Of a stretch of 64,000 nt of DNA, positions 1 through 61,200 are shown piece by piece. The translations under genes and the position numbers were made by a program. The notes under the pieces are model-generated. The model did no database searches, was not told where the DNA came from, and was given only the letters and a program-made list of their open reading frames with translations. The stretch's first letter is position 1. Each line of letters begins with the position of its first letter. This DNA is from Escherichia coli (GTDB lineage Bacteria; Pseudomonadota; Gammaproteobacteria; Enterobacterales; Enterobacteriaceae), in assembly GCF_044647545.1 (NCBI RefSeq), contig NZ_CP172818.1, one strand, 5' to 3'.

Positions 1-774
1 CCGGTGACCGGTGATGAATATAACGCTAAAAACGCCATCTTCACCGTTTCGGAAGCAATGGAGCACTTCTCCTATTTGCCGACCGGATTGTACGTATTTG
101 CGTATAAAAAAGACGTTTATTTTCAGGTATGTACATTGATTATTTTCTTTGCCGCATTGGTGGCAGTGATATCGGGTGCCAGTTGCCTCTATCTGGTACG
201 CAGAGTGATTAATCGTGGTATTGTGGAGAAAGAAGCCATTATTAATAACCATTTTGAACGCGTCCTGGATGGCGGGCTTTTCTTTTCGGCTGCCGATGTC
301 AAAAAACTCTACAGTATGTATAACTCGGCATTCCTGGACGATCTGACCAAAGCAATGGGCAGAAAATCCTTTGATGAAGATTTAAAAGCCCTGCCGGAAA
401 AAGGCGGCTATTTGTGCCTGTTTGACGTCGATAAATTCAAAAACATTAACGACACCTTCGGTCATTTGCTGGGCGATGAAGTGTTGATGAAAGTGGTGAA
501 AATCCTTAAATCACAGATCCCGGTAGATAAAGGTAAAGTCTACCGCTTCGGCGGTGACGAATTTGCGGTGATTTATACTGGCGGCACGCTGGAAGAGTTG
601 CTATCGATTCTAAAAGAAATCGTTCATTTCCAGGTGGGAAGCATTAATTTAAGTACCAGTATCGGTGTAGCGCATTCAAATGAATGTCCTACCGTCGAAC
701 GCTTGAAAATGCTGGCGGATGAGCGGCTGTATAAGAGTAAGAAAAACGGCAGGGCACAGATTAGCTGGCAGTAA
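1..774 (+). CDS. dgcI: Diguanylate cyclase DgcI (YliF), C-terminal GGDEF part; 5' end lies outside the window
   Basis: ORF 4..774 runs in from the window edge; translation contains GGDEF-type motifs (RFGGDEF) and matches YliF C-terminus as recalled; synteny upstream of rimO. Confidence 0.8.
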
Positions 775-1704
775 TTAGAATATTATACCCCTTAATCAAG
801 GGTACTAATGAATTGGTAAATCATTTCAAACATTTTACTTTGCAAAAACTTCCGGCCCTTTTATTCCAATGTATTCAAAAAACGCAATGCCGGCCCCTTC
901 TTTTTTTTTCTTTTCCTCCCCTTTTCTAAAACTTTTTTTTTTAAATTCCCTTTTGTTCCAAAACCGGGTGGATGCCCCGTCCGGCGGGCCTTTTTCTCTT
1001 CTCCCCCCTTTGTTTTTGTTTTGCTTATGGGCCGCACTCTCGGGTTTGTGACTTAAGGGGAAGGACAAACTTCCAAACAACAAACAGACCCACATTTCTT
1101 TCCTTTCTTTTCAATTTAATTTTTTTTTTTTTCTCCCAAAAAAAAAACAAATTCAAAAAAAATCTTTTTTTATTGCTAAAGGCCAGAAATGCATTTGCCA
1201 TTTTTTTGTAGGCCGCCAGTTCATCATCTTCGATTTCTTTGGTTCCTTTACTACTTAGACCACTCTTGGACCAACCATCATAAAAAAACACATGATTTGC
1301 TGATTTAAAAAAAATAATTTTTTTGCCTCCCCCTCTTTCTTTTTGAGGGGGAAATTTTTTTTAAGAACACCCCAACCTAAATCACCCTCCCATATGCCCT
1401 CCATCACTTCTCCAGCGCAAGCCATAAAAATTTTATATTAAAAACCAAGTTTTTTTTGTTTTGCGGAATCTTTCCCTTATACACACCCATACACCCATCT
1501 TTTGTTATTGTTTATATTATAAAAATTATTCTTTTTTAAAAAAAATTGAAAAAAAAAATTTATTTTGGAAAAAAAAAGGAGGGTTGCCCGAAGGTTTTTT
1601 TTTTTTTGATTTATGGGGGGGATTTTTGGGAAGGAAAGGAAAGGGGGGAGGGAAGGAGAGGAAGAAAAAAAAAAAATTAATTTAGATTTCTGCCTTAAGA
1701 TTAA
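775..1704. other. Compositionally aberrant low-complexity intergenic block (homopolymer runs, CT/GA-skewed tracts); no credible ORF
   Basis: Seen directly: T and A runs of 10 or more, tracts such as ggaaggaaaggaaaggggggagggaaggagaggaag; overlapping ORFs translate to poly-F/K/G/L peptides. Confidence 0.6.
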
Positions 1705-3030
1705 TTAAACCCGGCTACCCCACAAATCGTACTCATCGGCGTGCTCGACTTTCACACGCAGGATATCACCCGGCTTAACGTTGGTTTCACCATTGAGATA
1801 AACCGCGCCGTCGATTTCCGGTGCATCTGCCATGCTGCGACCAATCGCACCTTCTTCGTCCACTTCGTCGATAATCACCAGAATTTCACGGCCCACTTTC
1901 TCTTGCAGGCGCTCGGCGGAAATCTGCTGCTGCAACTGCATGAAACGGTTCCAGCGTTCTTCTTTCACTTCTTCCGGAACCTGGTCAGGCAGGGCATTGG
2001 CGTCTGCACCTTCAACCGGGCTGTATTTAAAGCAGCCAACGCGATCCAGACGTGCTTCTTTCAGGAAGTCGAGTAGCATCTGGAAATCTTCTTCCGTCTC
2101 GCCAGGGAAACCGACAATAAAGGTTGAGCGTAGGGTCAGTTCCGGGCAGATTTCGCGCCACTGTTTGATGCGCGCCAGTTGGCGATCTACAGAACCCGGA
2201 CGCTTCATCAGTTTGAGAATGCGCGGGCTGGCGTGCTGCAACGGAATGTCCAGATACGGCAGGATTTTGCCTTCTGCCATCAGTGGGATGACGTCGTCCA
2301 CATGCGGATAAGGGTAAACGTAGTGCAGACGTGTCCAGATCCCCAGTTTCGATAACTGTTCGCACAGGCTGACCATGCTGGTTTTTACCGGCTCGCCGTT
2401 GTGGAAGCCAGTACGATGTTTAACATCAACGCCATAGGCGGAAGTATCCTGCGAGATCACCAGAATCTCTTTAACGCCCGCATCAACCAGACGTTTCGCT
2501 TCACTTAACACTTCGCCAATAGGACGGCTCACCAGGTCGCCGCGCATAGACGGAATAATGCAGAAGGTGCAGCGGTGATTACAGCCTTCAGAAATTTTCA
2601 GATAGGCATAATGACGCGGCGTCAGTTTCACGCCTTGTTCTGGCACCAGGCTCAGGAATGGGTTGTGTTTCGGTTTTGGCACGTAGTGATGAACGTGCTC
2701 CAGAACCTGCTCATAGCTATGAGGCCCGGTGATTTCCAGCACTTTCGGGTGGACTTCGCGGATCTGATCTTCTTTTGCCCCCAGACAACCGGTCACAATT
2801 ACCTTGCCGTTTTCATTCAACGCTTCACCAATGGCTTCCAGTGATTCTTGTACCGCGCTGTCAATAAAGCCGCAGGTGTTGACGATCACCATGTCCGCAT
2901 CGTCATAGCTCGGTACCACGTCATAACCTTCAGTGCGTAGTTCGGTGAGAATACGCTCTGAATCGACAAGGTTTTTCGGACAGCCAAGGGAAACAAAGCC
3001 GATTTTCGGCTGGGGAGTTACTTTGCTCAT
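1705..3030 (-). CDS. rimO: Ribosomal protein S12 methylthiotransferase RimO (radical SAM, MiaB family)
   Basis: 441 aa ORF, CxxxCxxC radical-SAM motif (CNHRCTFC), length and sequence match RimO/YliG. Confidence 0.93.
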
Positions 3031-29226: not shown

Positions 29227-29305
29227 AATCATTTCCTTATTAGCTTGTTCTGAAAAATGGCGTTATACGATAATAGATGATATCCTTTCAATACCATCTT
29301 AAAAG

Positions 29306-29570
29306 CACAAAACAATACTTTATATTATAATAATAAAAATATATACTAATAATTAAAAAAATTAACATATACAACACATAATAAAAAAAAATAATAATTT
29401 AATATAAAAAAATAATTAAAAATTCTAAAAAACTTTAAATAATTTTAATAACAATCAAAATTATTAAATATTAAATCAAAAAAAAAAATTTTTAAAATAA
29501 AAAAAAAACAAATAAAAAAAATAATAATAAAACTATTAAATTATAAAAAAAAACAAATAATATTAAAAAT
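29306..29570. other. Extreme AT block with zero G over ~265 bp; non-enterobacterial composition
   Basis: Counted directly: no G and about 13 C between 29306 and 29570; A/T homopolymers and (aat)n-like tracts. Confidence 0.6.
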
Positions 29571-39893: not shown

Positions 39894-40297
39894 GAAAACC
39901 CAGTCCTTGCAAAGATGAAGTCGAAATGCGCGATGACACACTACTGAAAGCGGAAGGACGAGTAAAGTTGCAATTAAAAGGAAATGTTATGCATCAGGAG
40001 CAGGGGATTTTTATTATGTTGCATTGTTGTGGTCTCTTCCATGTGCATTAAGCCACTGGCGAGGAGCGCAAATCGCCGATCGTTTCCTGTAGGCCGGGGC
40101 AGCCCACATAATGTGGGCTGAGGGCGCGTTTTACAGGGATCAAACTTACCGGTCGCGCGAGAAGTCCAACTTCAGCCCGAGGTTCATGTGGCTTCCTGGC
40201 CTTCGGGAACCGCTTCAGCGTATTGACGCCACCAAGACCCGTGGTTCGGTAACGTCGAAGATAAAACAACCAGGGCAGATAAAGTGCCAATGCTTAA

Positions 40298-40993
40298 TTA
40301 ATTACGTTTTTCCAGTAGAGTCCGGTAAATCAGACCACCGATAATACCGCCGACAATTGGCACCACCCAGAAGAACCACAATTGTTCTAACGCCCAGCCG
40401 CCCTGGAAGATAGCAACCGCGGTGCTGCGCGCCGGGTTAACAGAAGTGTTAGTCACCGGAATACTGATTAAGTGAATCAGGGTTAAGGCCAGACCAATAG
40501 CGATCGGCGCAAAACCTGCCGGAGCGAATTTGTCGGTTGCGCCGTGGATCACCAGCAGGAAACCTGCACTCAATACCAGTTCAACTACCAGCGCGGAAAG
40601 CATGGAATAACCGCCTGGCGAATGCTCGCCATAACCGTTAGAAGCAAAACCGCTGGCTGCCGCGTCAAAACCTGTTTTACCACTGGCAATTAAATACAGC
40701 AGCGCCGCCGCAACAATACCGCCGACAACCTGGGCAATTACGTAGCCAACGACTTCTTTTGCCGGAAAACGTCCGCCAGCCCATAAACCAATAGTGACCG
40801 CCGGGTTAAAATGACCACCAGAAATATGACCAACAGCGAAGGCCATCGTCAGAACGGTCAGACCGAATGCCAGCGCCACGCCGGCAAAACCAATGCCTAA
40901 TTCCGGGAAGCCTGCGGCCAGTACGGCACTACCACAGCCACCAAAAACAAGCCAGAAAGTACCAAAACATTCAGCTGCTAATTTTCTGAACAT
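40298..40993 (-). CDS. aqpZ: Aquaporin Z
   Basis: 231 aa from ATG 40993; two NPA motifs (HFNPAV, SVNPAR). Confidence 0.95.
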
Positions 40994-50738: not shown

Positions 50739-50826
50739 GTTCACTGCCGTACAGGCAGCTTAGAAATTCACTGGTAACATACTCCACCCGCCCACCATGT
50801 TCACTGCCGTACAGGCAGATAAAATG
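50739..50826 (+). CRISPR. Vestigial type I-F CRISPR array: 2 repeats (second degenerate at 3' end), 1 spacer of 32 bp; no cas genes nearby
   Basis: Repeat 1 at 50739-50766 GTTCACTGCCGTACAGGCAGCTTAGAAA (the I-F / Ypest-type repeat); spacer 50767-50798; repeat 2 at 50799-50826 GTTCACTGCCGTACAGGCAGataaaatg; AT-rich leader upstream; clpA-infA location is the known I-F CRISPR site in E. coli. Confidence 0.85.
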
Positions 50827-50832
50827 CGAAAA

Positions 50833-58209: not shown

Positions 58210-61200
58210 TTGAGCCAGGAATACACTGAAGACAAAGAAGTCACATTGACAAAGTTAAGTAGCGGCCGCCGCCTTCTGGAGGCGTTGCTGATCCTTATTG
58301 TCCTGTTTGCCGTCTGGTTGATGGCTGCCTTACTAAGCTTTAACCCTTCGGACCCCAGCTGGTCGCAAACGGCCTGGCATGAACCTATCCATAATTTAGG
58401 TGGGATGCCCGGTGCATGGCTGGCAGATACGCTGTTCTTTATTTTTGGCGTGATGGCTTACACCATTCCCGTCATTATTGTCGGCGGTTGTTGGTTTGCC
58501 TGGCGTCATCAGTCCAGCGACGAATACATTGATTATTTTGCCGTTTCGCTACGCATCATTGGCGTTTTGGCGCTCATCCTTACCTCCTGTGGTCTGGCGG
58601 CAATCAACGCTGACGATATCTGGTATTTTGCCTCCGGTGGCGTCATTGGCAGCTTACTGAGCACTACGCTACAACCACTGCTACACAGTAGCGGGGGAAC
58701 TATTGCACTGCTCTGCGTTTGGGCAGCGGGCCTGACGCTGTTCACCGGTTGGTCATGGGTGACCATTGCTGAAAAACTCGGCGGCTGGATTTTAAATATT
58801 CTTACCTTCGCCAGTAATCGTACCCGTCGCGATGATACCTGGGTCGATGAAGATGAGTATGAAGACGACGAAGAATATGAAGAAGATGAAAGTCACGGCA
58901 AACAGCATGAATCACGCCGTGCCCGTATTCTTCGCGGCGCGCTAGCGCGTCGTAAACGGTTGGCGGAAAAATTCATTAATCCGATGGGGCGGCAAACAGA
59001 CGCTGCGTTGTTCTCCGGTAAGCGGATGGATGATGACGAAGAGATTACCTACACTGCACGCGGTGTGGCTGCCGACCCTGACGACGTCCTCTTTTCGGGC
59101 AATCGTGCAACGCAGCCAGAATATGACGAGTACGATCCATTATTAAACGGTGCGCCAATTACCGAACCTGTTGCTGTAGCAGCTGCTGCTACCACGGCGA
59201 CACAAAGCTGGGCTGCACCGGTTGAACCTGTGACTCAGACGCCGCCAGTTGCCTCTGTTGATGTTCCACCTACGCAACCTACAGTAGCCTGGCAGCCTGT
59301 ACCGGGGCCGCAAACAGGAGAACCGGTTATTGCACCTGCACCGGAAGGTTACCCACAGCAGTCACAATATGCGCAGCCTGCAGTGCAATATAATGAGCCG
59401 CTGCAACAACCTGTACAGCCACAGCAGCCGTATTATGCGCCTGCAGCGGAACAGCCTGTGCAACAACCTTACTACGCTCCTGCGCCGGAACAGTCTGCGC
59501 AACAGCCGTATTACGCCCCTGCGCCAGAACAATCGGTGGCAGGTAACGCCTGGCAAGCCGAAGAGCAGCAATCCACTTTTGCTCCACAGTCTACATACCA
59601 GACTGAGCAAACTTATCAGCAGCCAGCCGCTCAGGAGCCGTTGTACCAACAGCCGCAACCCGTTGAACAGCAGCCTGTTGTGGAGCCTGAACCCGTTGTA
59701 GAAGAGACAAAACCCGCGCGTCCGCCGCTTTACTATTTTGAAGAAGTGGAAGAGAAGCGTGCCCGTGAACGTGAACAACTTGCGGCCTGGTATCAACCGA
59801 TTCCTGAACCGGTTAAAGAACCAGAACCGATCAAATCTTCGCTGAAAGCACCTTCTGTTGCAGCAGTACCTCCAGTGGAAGCCGCTGCCGCTGTTTCCCC
59901 TCTGGCATCTGGCGTGAAAAAAGCGACACTGGCGACGGGGGCTGCCGCAACCGTTGCCGCGCCAGTCTTCAGTCTGGCAAATAGCGCTGGACCGCGTCCG
60001 CAGGTCAAAGAGGGGATTGGCCCGCAGTTGCCACGACCGAAACGCATCCGCGTGCCAACTCGTCGTGAACTGGCGTCTTACGGTATTAAGCTGCCCTCAC
60101 AGCGTGCGGCAGAAGAAAAAGCCCGTGAAGCTCAGCGCAATCAGTACGATTCCGGCGATCAGTATAACGATGATGAAATCGATGCGATGCAGCAGGATGA
60201 ACTGGCACGTCAGTTCGCCCAGACACAGCAGCAACGCTATGGCGAACAGTATCAACATGATGTGCCCGTGAACGCAGAAGATGCAGATGCTGCGGCAGAG
60301 GCTGAACTGGCTCGTCAGTTTGCTCAAACTCAACAACAACGTTATTCCGGCGAACAACCTGCTGGGGCGAATCCGTTCACTCTGGATGATTTTGAATTTT
60401 CGCCAATGAAAGCGTTGCTGGATGATGGTCCACACGAACCGCTGTTTACGCCAATTGTTGAACCTGTACAGCAGCCGCAACAACCGAAAGTTGCACCGCA
60501 GCAGCAATATCAGCAGCCGCAACAGCCGGTTGCACCACAGCCGCAATATCAGCAGCCGCAACAGCCGGTTGCGCCGCAGCCGCAGTATCAGCAGCCACAA
60601 CAACCGGTTGCGCCGCAGCCGCAATATCAGCAGCCACAACAGCCAGTTGCGCCGCAGCCGCAGTATCAGCAGCCACAACAGCCAGTTGCGCCACAGCCGC
60701 AGGATACCCTGCTTCATCCGCTGTTGATGCGTAATGGCGACAGCCGTCCGTTGCATAAACCGACGACGCCGCTGCCTTCTCTGGATTTGTTGACGCCGCC
60801 GCCGAGCGAAGTGGAGCCGGTAGATACCTTTGCTCTTGAACAAATGGCGCGTCTGGTGGAAGCGCGTCTGGCTGATTTCCGTATTAAAGCCGATGTCGTC
60901 AATTATTCTCCGGGGCCGGTTATCACTCGCTTTGAATTGAACCTGGCACCGGGCGTAAAAGCGGCGCGTATTTCTAACTTGTCACGTGACCTTGCCCGTT
61001 CACTTTCGACGGTGGCGGTGCGTGTCGTTGAAGTTATTCCTGGCAAACCCTATGTAGGTCTGGAGTTACCGAATAAAAAACGACAAACCGTTTATCTGCG
61101 TGAAGTTTTGGATAACGCCAAATTCCGCGATAATCCGTCGCCATTAACCGTGGTGCTGGGTAAAGATATCGCCGGTGAGCCGGTGGTTGCCGATCTGGCG

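What the first reader, a model, noticed from the sequence alone, without database searches (positions are those of the whole stretch)
775..1704. 930-bp low-complexity, homopolymer-rich spacer between dgcI and rimO that does not look like enterobacterial DNA
Every other spacer in the window is 30-550 bp of ordinary-complexity sequence with recognisable terminators, REPs or promoters. This spacer is ~930 bp and is dominated by A/T homopolymers of 10 or more, CT-rich tracts (ccccttctttttttttcttttcctcccc) and purine-only tracts (ggaaggaaaggaaaggggggagggaaggagaggaag). The six-frame ORFs across it (835..1095, 869..1051, 972..1211, 1461..1685) translate to poly-F/K/G/L peptides. There are no terminal inverted repeats, target-site duplications, or transposase or integrase genes. 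The flanking genes are intact, so the block sits cleanly in intergenic space. Candidate explanations: foreign or synthetic filler insertion, assembly or consensus artefact, or in silico alteration. I cannot tell which from sequence alone. A CCCCCTC-N9-GAGGGGG hairpin plus T-run (1329-1362) is the only structured element I see.
Basis: seen in the sequence. Interest (0 to 1): 0.7.

Follow-up and report, generated by a model that had tools for sequence, protein, structure and literature searches.

The report
Garbled copy of toxin-antitoxin island
The odd homopolymer-rich spacer is a badly reconstructed copy of an ordinary 1-kb toxin-antitoxin gene pair that many E. coli carry at this exact site, so it is a consensus error in a deposited assembly and not foreign or unusual DNA.

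Summary
Window 775-1688 is extremely homopolymer-rich, 7-9 SD above the rest of the window. It is not foreign DNA. It aligns end to end, at 75.8% identity, with a 1,000-bp island that sits between dgcI and rimO in 1,129 of 5,426 complete E. coli genomes. That island encodes a RelE-family toxin (PF06296) and an HTH antitoxin.

The window's nearest relatives are ST648-type genomes. They match the flanking DNA almost perfectly, with 3 differences in 27.5 kb, and all carry the clean island.

The differences are not mutational. ts/tv is 0.45, against 3.05 in flanking DNA. There are 79 deletions and 9 insertions. 81% of substitutions copy an adjacent base. Fidelity decays left to right and resets abruptly.

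The same garbling, with the same wrong bases, occurs in RefSeq genome BS-01. A garbled ORF from the window is RefSeq protein WP_400165219.1, so the error is in the deposited record.

Four more aberrant sites in the window all lie where relatives carry sequence that K-12 lacks. The reset point is exactly where the K-12 spacer aligns best to the island. Simulated left-justified stacking of unaligned insertions reproduces the homopolymers, the GC drop and the decay profile.

Verdict: a reference-guided consensus artefact, not a real feature.

The parts
4..774 (+). 3' part of dgcI (diguanylate cyclase), intact. It is identical to ST648-type relatives up to base 773. The stop codon reads TAA, as in K-12 and BS-01, where the relatives have TAG.
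   Evidence: ORF 4..774; first difference from CLSC36 at window 774; annotation.
775..895 (-). Start of the garbled island, lightly damaged with mostly single-base deletions. It corresponds to the island's left spacer, including a 12-nt inverted repeat, and to the antitoxin 3' end. The last 9 codons, IKGPEVFAK, are still readable.
   Evidence: Alignment A1; identity 0.82-0.95 per 40-nt bin; inverted repeat I3 in the clean island; ORF 835..1095(-) ends in ...IKGPEVFAK, matching the clean antitoxin.
896..1169 (-). Heavily garbled stretch, 33-70% identical to the clean island. It corresponds to most of the HTH antitoxin gene and the 3' end of the toxin gene. No reading frame survives.
   Evidence: clean CDS positions.
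1170..1312 (-). Core of 143 nt identical to the clean island. It encodes toxin residues 70-110. Its first base is exactly where the K-12-type dgcI-rimO spacer aligns best to the island, and this is the register reset point in both the window and BS-01.
   Evidence: 143-nt perfect run; residues 70-110 identical; best spacer alignment at island 450-480, core start at 450.
1313..1688 (-). Second garbled stretch, with fidelity falling from about 0.9 to about 0.6 towards the right. It corresponds to the 5' half of the toxin gene and its upstream region. It includes the spurious hairpin at 1329-1362 and the purine-only tract.
1689..3030 (-). 16 clean spacer bases followed by rimO (441 aa), intact and identical to relatives.
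29248..29570 (.). Second artefact of the same kind. A K-12-type 46-bp ybjP-ybjQ spacer is retained (39 of 45 bases match), followed by about 271 bp of A/T-only garbage. ST648-type relatives have a 2,543-bp AT-rich island here.
40013..40300 (.). Chimeric lysO-aqpZ repeat spacer found in no complete E. coli genome. One part is in K-12 orientation and sequence (67 of 71 match), followed by a blurred copy of the relatives' sequence.
50739..50775 (.). A 60-bp type I-F CRISPR repeat-plus-spacer unit, present in relatives and absent from K-12, is rendered as a blurred stretch of about 38 nt.
60480..60492 (+). A 39-bp PQ-repeat unit of ftsK, present in relatives and absent from K-12, is collapsed to 3 nt. 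The change is in frame and the ftsK ORF stays open. This could also be natural repeat-number variation.

Best explanation
Window 775-1688 is a corrupted rendering of a known 1,000-bp type II toxin-antitoxin island. The island encodes a RelE-family toxin of 128 aa and an HTH antitoxin of 109 aa, both on the - strand. The strain almost certainly carries it intact.

The corruption arose during consensus building in the deposited assembly. The inferred mechanism is as follows. Long reads from an ST648-type isolate were turned into a consensus on a backbone that has the short K-12-type spacer at this site. Against that backbone each read shows two long insertions, of about 447 and 520 nt, separated by a short forced match of the backbone spacer to island positions 450-480. 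The inserted bases were stacked from the left anchor without being realigned to one another. Small indel errors in the reads therefore shifted their registers progressively, and a per-column majority vote returned the locally commonest base. That process produces homopolymers, neighbour-copying substitutions, net shortening, a drop in GC, left-to-right decay and an abrupt return to perfect sequence at each anchor.

Shown here: homology to the island, clean relatives, a non-biological error spectrum, deterministic errors shared with BS-01, co-location of all anomalies with sequence absent from K-12, coincidence of the reset point with the best spacer match, and a simulation that reproduces the features.

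Inferred: the actual software, the read type and the identity of the backbone. The confidence of 0.85 is for 'artefactual rendering of the real TA island'. For the specific stacking-on-a-K-12-type-backbone mechanism I would say about 0.6.
For: - **Homology.** The spacer aligns over all 930 nt to the dgcI|rimO island, at 75.8% identity. The island is present in 1,129 of 5,426 complete genomes, and those copies are at least 98.5% identical to one another. The clean toxin matches Pfam RelE PF06296 over its full length (E = 8e-33). The clean antitoxin matches HTH_3.
- **Flanks.** Window 1705-29247 differs at 3 positions from CLSC36. Several ST648-type genomes match at 100.0%, and all of them carry the clean island.
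- **Error spectrum.** There are 145 mismatches, 79 deletions and 9 insertions. ts/tv is 0.45, against 3.05 for CLSC36 versus K-12 flanking DNA. 81% of substitutions equal an immediate neighbour base; the null mean is 55% and the maximum in 1,000 trials is 66%.
- **Deterministic errors.** In BS-01, a different strain background, 126 columns are wrong in both sequences where 47 would be expected. 82% of those carry the same wrong base, against 33% expected. The profile and reset point are the same.
- **Deposited as such.** ORF 835..1095(-) is WP_400165219.1, on a 4,499,902-bp contig. Its accession number lies close to those of BS-01's novel proteins.
- **Other anomalies.** All other aberrant sites in the window lie where relatives carry sequence not alignable to K-12. 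Deletions relative to K-12 are clean. A K-12-type spacer is retained at 29248-29293, where the relatives lack it.
- **Reset point.** Under minimap2-like scoring and three other schemes, the best alignment of the K-12 spacer to the island is at 450-480, and the core starts at 450.
- **Simulation.** Left-justified stacking reproduces the decay profile in both halves (r = 0.71-0.85). Right-justified stacking gives r = -0.26 to -0.60. At a depth of about 10 reads it gives an adjacent-identity fraction of 0.48-0.49, 18-22 runs of 7 or more, and GC 0.36-0.39. The observed values are 0.51, 18 and 0.34; the clean island has 0.31, 2 and 0.41.
- **BS-01 elsewhere.** BS-01 has further garbage at other variable loci.
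Against: - No reads, assembly-method record or publication could be consulted, so the pipeline is inferred.
- The similarity between the K-12 spacer and the island is not significant on its own (20-32 of 300 shuffles reach it; under a stricter gap penalty the best hit moves to island 568-579).
- One 39-nt insertion relative to K-12, at window 59464-59504, is rendered correctly, so only the longer insertions fail.
- The simulated consensus is not clearly closer to the observed bases than the true island is. The simulated sequences are also longer than the observed one (966-995 against 931 nt).
- The two-letter garbage in BS-01 (A/C-only and G-rich) looks more like the output of a neural polisher than a plain majority vote.
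- The attempt to prove an MG1655 backbone for BS-01 from IS186 and IS1 sites failed. Those sites are shared by 672 and 560 genomes respectively.
Confidence: 0.85

Rival explanations
1. This is a de novo assembly artefact with no reference backbone. The island was bridged or filled with one or a few poor long reads, or left unpolished because of local coverage loss.
For: The sequence behaves like noisy, deletion-biased long-read data. A depth of about 10 reads fits the simulation best.
Against: - Damage does not follow GC. The worst stretch has GC 0.47-0.55, so AT-related coverage loss is not the cause.
- Errors are shared base for base with a second genome.
- The reset point coincides with the best K-12 spacer match.
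- K-12-type sequence appears at 29248-29293, where relatives lack it.
- Even a 60-bp CRISPR unit is garbled between perfect flanks.
Confidence: 0.1
2. This is a real, heavily decayed toxin-antitoxin pseudogene island that was hypermutated or eroded by slippage in this strain.
For: Both genes are disrupted and only toxin residues 70-110 survive. Toxin-antitoxin loci do decay in nature.
Against: - There is 24% divergence inside the island against about 0.01% in 27 kb of flanking DNA.
- ts/tv is 0.45, substitutions copy neighbour bases, and deletions outnumber insertions 79 to 9.
- All 1,129 full-length copies in complete genomes are at least 98.5% identical to one another.
- The same wrong bases occur in an unrelated strain background, yet the two copies are only 80% identical to each other.
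- Four other garbled sites lie in the same window.
Confidence: 0.02
3. This is a foreign or synthetic filler insertion, or the window was edited in silico after deposition.
For: The sequence has low complexity. It has no mobile-element features, and no identical copy exists in 5,426 complete genomes.
Against: It is collinear with the native island along its whole length. It contains a 143-nt exact core. A garbled ORF from it is already a RefSeq protein. A RefSeq genome shows the same phenomenon.
Confidence: 0.02
4. A physical property of the DNA at accessory islands, such as dense modification or structure, makes base calling fail there reproducibly.
For: The failure is reproducible at the same positions in two genomes. 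It affects horizontally acquired segments.
Against: - 1,128 other assemblies, many of them presumably long-read based, read the island cleanly.
- The damage is directional, with abrupt right edges, which is unexpected when both strands are read.
- It also hits a 60-bp CRISPR unit and a REP spacer.
- Backbone-type sequence is retained.
Confidence: 0.02

Closest known systems
dgcI|rimO type II toxin-antitoxin island of E. coli (RelE-family toxin WP_000539521.1 with HTH antitoxin WP_001280945.1), as in strains IMT16316, CLSC36, ST648 and O157:H7
   Same: It sits at the same chromosomal site and has the same end points. It is collinear over all 930 nt. A 143-nt stretch is identical, and toxin residues 70-110 and the last 9 antitoxin residues are still encoded.
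   Different: The window copy is 70 nt shorter and only 75.8% identical. It is homopolymer-rich and encodes neither protein.
Garbled dgcI|rimO island in RefSeq genome E. coli BS-01 (NZ_CP172816.1)
   Same: It shows the same kind of damage, the same position-dependent profile and the same reset base. Where both are wrong, 82% of the wrong bases are identical. Its RefSeq protein accession numbers are close to that of the window's garbled ORF.
   Different: It has a different strain background, 98.5-99.4% identical to K-12. It is more heavily damaged, at 869 nt. PGAP still calls a truncated 'toxin' there.
Reference-guided consensus, or polishing of a foreign draft, with long reads. This is a known class of assembly error in which insertions absent from the draft are mis-built. 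Stated from general knowledge of consensus tools, not from a cited source.
   Same: Sequence homologous to the backbone is perfect and carries the strain's own SNPs. Deletions are clean. Long insertions are blurred or collapsed. Backbone sequence shows through.
   Different: The tool and the backbone are not identified. Some garbage in BS-01 uses only two letters, which a plain majority vote does not predict.

Membership tests
Type II toxin-antitoxin system (RelE/ParE-family toxin with HTH antitoxin) | Intact toxin ORF with a RelE-fold domain (Pfam PF06296) | tested here: not met
   The clean relative's toxin matches PF06296 at 1-124 of 128 residues (E = 8e-33). In the window only residues 70-110 are encoded, inside an 88-aa ORF with a junk tail.
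Type II toxin-antitoxin system (RelE/ParE-family toxin with HTH antitoxin) | Intact adjacent antitoxin ORF with a DNA-binding HTH domain | tested here: not met
   The clean antitoxin has HTH_3 (E = 3e-9). The window keeps only the C-terminal IKGPEVFAK, and the rest of ORF 835..1095(-) is junk.
Type II toxin-antitoxin system (RelE/ParE-family toxin with HTH antitoxin) | Two small overlapping genes on one strand, in the conserved genomic position of the family member | tested here: met
   The position (dgcI|rimO) and collinearity with the two-gene island are kept. The underlying locus is a member; the sequence as written is not functional.
Consensus or assembly artefact on a foreign backbone | Flanks identical to close relatives, with divergence confined to a sharply bounded block | tested here: met
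   There are 3 differences in 27.5 kb, against 24% inside 774-1688.
Consensus or assembly artefact on a foreign backbone | An error spectrum that mutation does not produce | tested here: met
   ts/tv is 0.45 against 3.05. 81% of substitutions copy a neighbour base. There are 79 deletions and 9 insertions. The same wrong bases occur in an unrelated strain.
Consensus or assembly artefact on a foreign backbone | Anomalies only where the sample has sequence the backbone lacks, with backbone sequence showing through | tested here: met
   Five of six insertions of 39 nt or more relative to K-12 are aberrant, and deletions are clean. The K-12-type ybjP-ybjQ spacer is retained. The reset point coincides with the best K-12 spacer match.
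Consensus or assembly artefact on a foreign backbone | Raw reads contradict the deposited sequence | not testable with these tools
   No read data or assembly-method record is reachable. The look-up of encoding contigs has no entry and no paper was found.
Mobile element or foreign insertion (IS, transposon, integrative island) | Terminal inverted repeats, target-site duplication, and a transposase or integrase gene | tested here: not met
   No such ORFs exist in the window copy. The clean island shows only three short inverted repeats and no direct repeats, and its two genes are a toxin and an antitoxin.

The most novel reading that the evidence does not exclude
The garbling might reflect a real, reproducible physical property of the DNA of horizontally acquired segments in these isolates, such as dense modification, that defeats base calling. 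It would then be more than a purely computational consensus error.
Probability: 0.02. Interest if true: 0.5.

Novelty: not a real feature. Interest (0 to 1): 0.07.

Why it matters
The finding has no biological significance in itself. The strain most likely carries a common, already annotated toxin-antitoxin pair.

The practical value is for data hygiene. At least two deposited E. coli chromosomes of about 4.5 Mb appear to have blurred or collapsed accessory DNA: BS-01 and the source of this window. These records add spurious 'hypothetical proteins' such as WP_400165219.1 to RefSeq. They would also mislead pangenome, defence-system and pseudogene surveys.

The signature seen here could be used to screen public assemblies for the same fault. 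It consists of homopolymer enrichment, substitutions that copy neighbour bases, left-to-right decay with abrupt resets, and perfect flanks.

Tried and rejected
- **AT-rich coverage loss.** Rejected. The worst-damaged stretch has the highest GC, 0.47-0.55.
- **Core kept because it is repeated elsewhere in the genome.** Rejected. Only 8 extra places were found in 1,138 records, and those are split islands.
- **Core kept because it is the most conserved part of the toxin gene.** It does overlap the part conserved in Providencia and Moellerella plasmids. At 68-70% identity that cannot restore an exact sequence. The spacer-anchor explanation fits better.
- **Long inverted repeats in the island as a cause of read failure.** None were found, only three short ones.
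- **Proving an MG1655 backbone for BS-01 from IS186A and IS1A sites and the thrL start.** Not diagnostic. The junctions occur in 672 and 560 genomes, including natural isolates.
- **K-12 spacer anchor under a stricter gap penalty.** The best hit moves to island 568-579 and is not significant.
- **Base-level match of the simulation to the observed sequence.** No clear gain over the true island. Only the profile and the composition statistics match.
- **Finding the source record or a paper.** The look-up of encoding contigs has no entry. Searches for Sukabumi broiler genomes and for CP172816 found nothing useful.
- **Rfam scan of 600-1900.** Only a chance-level hit.
- **NCBIfam search on the toxin.** No family found.

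Full report
**Observation.** dgcI ends at 774 and rimO (- strand) ends at 1705. The 930 bp between them hold 18 homopolymer runs of 7 or more, against 25 in the other 63 kb. The fraction of adjacent identical bases is 0.43-0.61, against 0.264 +/- 0.036 elsewhere, which is 4.6-9.5 SD. GC falls to 0.27-0.43. Rfam finds nothing. The claim that every other spacer is ordinary is wrong: 29248-29570 is a second low-complexity block, made only of A and T.

**What it is.** A megablast search of 500-2000 against 5,426 complete E. coli genomes showed that 1,129 of them carry about 1 kb between dgcI and rimO. That DNA is annotated as a RelE/ParE-family toxin plus an HTH protein. The clean island is 1,000 bp, and its copies are at least 98.5% identical across those genomes. 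The window's spacer aligns to it end to end at 75.8% identity. The clean toxin (128 aa) matches Pfam RelE PF06296 over its full length (E = 8e-33). The antitoxin (109 aa) has an HTH_3 domain and a weak MqsA-like match. In the window neither gene survives. Only toxin residues 70-110 and the last nine antitoxin residues are still encoded.

**The divergence is not evolutionary.** The DNA next to the block (1705-26000) is 100.0% identical to several ST648-type genomes: CLSC36, AH50, 1428, EC488, ST648 and others. All of them carry the clean island. Against CLSC36 there are 3 differences in window 1705-29247. Inside 774-1688 there are 145 mismatches, 79 deleted bases and 9 inserted bases. ts/tv is 0.45, against 3.05 for natural divergence in flanking DNA. 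81% of substitutions change a base into its immediate neighbour, where the null mean is 55% and the maximum of 1,000 trials is 66%. 97% of them copy a base within two positions. The clean sequence at that point is toxin coding sequence.

**The error pattern is deterministic and directional.** Fidelity is high for about 120 nt after dgcI. It then decays to 33-60% over the antitoxin gene, which is the highest-GC part, so AT-related coverage loss is excluded. It snaps back to 100% at window 1170 for 143 nt. It then decays again up to an abrupt edge 16 nt before rimO. RefSeq genome BS-01 (NZ_CP172816.1) is a different strain background, and the same island is garbled there with the same profile and the same reset base. 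Both copies are wrong at 126 columns where 47 would be expected, and 82% of those carry the same wrong base. Even so, the two garbled copies are only 80% identical to each other. They are therefore two blurs of one true sequence and not a shared allele.

**The error is in the public record.** The 86-aa junk ORF at 835..1095(-) is RefSeq protein WP_400165219.1, seen on one contig of 4,499,902 bp. Its accession number lies close to those of BS-01's novel proteins, WP_400168413.1 and WP_400168500.1. BS-01's chromosome is 4,493,816 bp. A chromosome of about 4.5 Mb is small beside the ST648-type relatives listed here, which are about 4.9-5.3 Mb. That suggests accessory DNA has been lost or collapsed. 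The same submitter and pipeline is an inference from these points. The source genome is not in the complete-genome collection, and its contig could not be retrieved.

**The other anomalies point to a backbone.** Comparing the window, CLSC36 and K-12 MG1655 shows that every aberrant stretch lies where the relatives carry sequence not alignable to K-12.
- The 1,000-bp TA island becomes 930 bp of blur.
- The 2,543-bp ybjP-ybjQ island becomes a retained K-12-type 46-bp spacer (39 of 45 match, against a best score of 13 anywhere in the relatives' island) followed by about 271 bp of A/T garbage.
- The lysO-aqpZ repeat spacer is a chimera found in no complete genome.
- One extra I-F CRISPR repeat-plus-spacer unit of 60 bp becomes a 38-nt blur.
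- A 39-bp ftsK repeat unit becomes 3 nt. This change is in frame and could be natural.

Deletions relative to K-12 are rendered cleanly. One 39-nt insertion, at window 59464-59504, is rendered correctly.

**Mechanism.** A DP aligner forced to place the K-12 dgcI-rimO spacer somewhere along the 1-kb island would put it at island positions 450-480. This holds under minimap2-like scoring and three other schemes. The perfect core starts at island position 450. That similarity is not significant on its own, and under a stricter gap penalty the best hit moves. An aligner does not need significance, though, and the chance that the best placement coincides with the reset point is of the order of 1%.

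Reads would then show two long insertions, each anchored on its left. I simulated stacking the inserted bases from the left anchor without realigning them, followed by a majority vote. With read indel rates of about 1.5-3% the simulation gave these results.
- The decay profile is reproduced in both halves (r = 0.71-0.85). Right-anchored stacking gives r = -0.26 to -0.60.
- At a depth of about 10 reads the adjacent-identity fraction is 0.48-0.49, there are 18-22 runs of 7 or more, and GC is 0.36-0.39. The observed values are 0.51, 18 and 0.34. The clean island has 0.31, 2 and 0.41.
- Base-level agreement with the observed sequence is no better than that of the true island, and the simulated sequences are somewhat longer than the observed one.

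The model explains the statistics and the geometry, but not every base. BS-01 also has A/C-only and G-rich garbage next to asnT, and a broken CP4-44/flu region. That suggests a neural polisher working on poor pile-ups rather than a plain vote. The software, the read type and the exact backbone remain inferred.

**Rivals.**
- A de novo assembly with poor gap fill (confidence about 0.1) does not explain the retained K-12-type spacer, the reset coincidence, or a garbled 60-bp unit between perfect flanks.
- Real decay (about 0.02) is excluded by the error spectrum, by the contrast of flanks with island, and by the wrong bases shared across strains.
- Foreign or synthetic filler, or later editing (about 0.02), is excluded by end-to-end collinearity and by the RefSeq protein.
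- DNA that is physically hard to read (about 0.02) is unlikely, because 1,128 other assemblies read the island cleanly.

**Dead ends.**
- The IS186A and IS1A junctions and the thrL start in BS-01 are not diagnostic of an MG1655 backbone. The junctions occur in 672 and 560 genomes.
- Literature searches found nothing on BS-01.
- The conservation of the core in Providencia and Moellerella plasmid homologues is probably coincidental.

**Verdict.** This is not a real feature. It is a consensus artefact that overlies a common, already annotated toxin-antitoxin island. Interest is low, apart from its use as a flag for faulty public assemblies.

Noticed in passing
window 29248-29570: This is a second low-complexity block, made only of A and T, between ybjP and ybjQ. 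Its first ~46 nt resemble the common short K-12-type spacer. ST648-type relatives have a 2,543-bp AT-rich island here with a pentapeptide-repeat pseudogene. No complete E. coli genome has the window's version.
   Followed up: yes
window 40013-40300: The lysO-aqpZ repeat (REP-like) spacer is a chimera. One part has K-12 orientation and sequence, followed by a blurred copy of the relatives' version. It is found in none of 5,426 complete genomes.
   Followed up: partly
window 50739-50830: A small orphan type I-F CRISPR array (repeat GTTCACTGCCGTACAGGCAGCTTAGAAA) lies between clpA and serW. Relatives have one more repeat-plus-spacer unit than K-12. In the window that extra unit is blurred to about 38 nt.
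   Followed up: partly
window 60480-60492 (ftsK linker): A 39-bp PQ-repeat unit present in CLSC36 is replaced by 3 nt (AAA), in frame. It could be the same artefact or natural repeat-number variation.
   Followed up: partly
L011 (BS-01 NZ_CP172816.1, 1975001-2025000) 12100-12600 and 13250-13370: There is A/C-only garbage directly after tRNA-Asn (asnT) and a G-rich garbage block where K-12 has yeeJ. The CP4-44/flu region downstream is a run of frameshifted and partial pseudogenes. BS-01 is therefore affected at several variable loci.
   Followed up: partly
L001 776-1775 (clean island) across the E. coli genome collection: The TA island is present in 1,138 of 5,426 complete genomes, including O157:H7 and O55:H7. 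In 8 genomes it is split into two places, presumably by an insertion. The central part of the toxin gene has homologues at about 68-70% identity on Providencia, Moellerella, Proteus and Xenorhabdus plasmids.
   Followed up: no
window 772-774: The dgcI stop codon reads TAA, as in K-12 and BS-01. The otherwise identical ST648-type relatives have TAG followed by two extra bases. This may be a small trace of the backbone.
   Followed up: no
L003 33773-34001 and L006 4828-7176: pdeI, just upstream of dgcI, is annotated as a pseudogene both in CLSC36 (frameshifted) and in BS-01 (internal stop).
   Followed up: no
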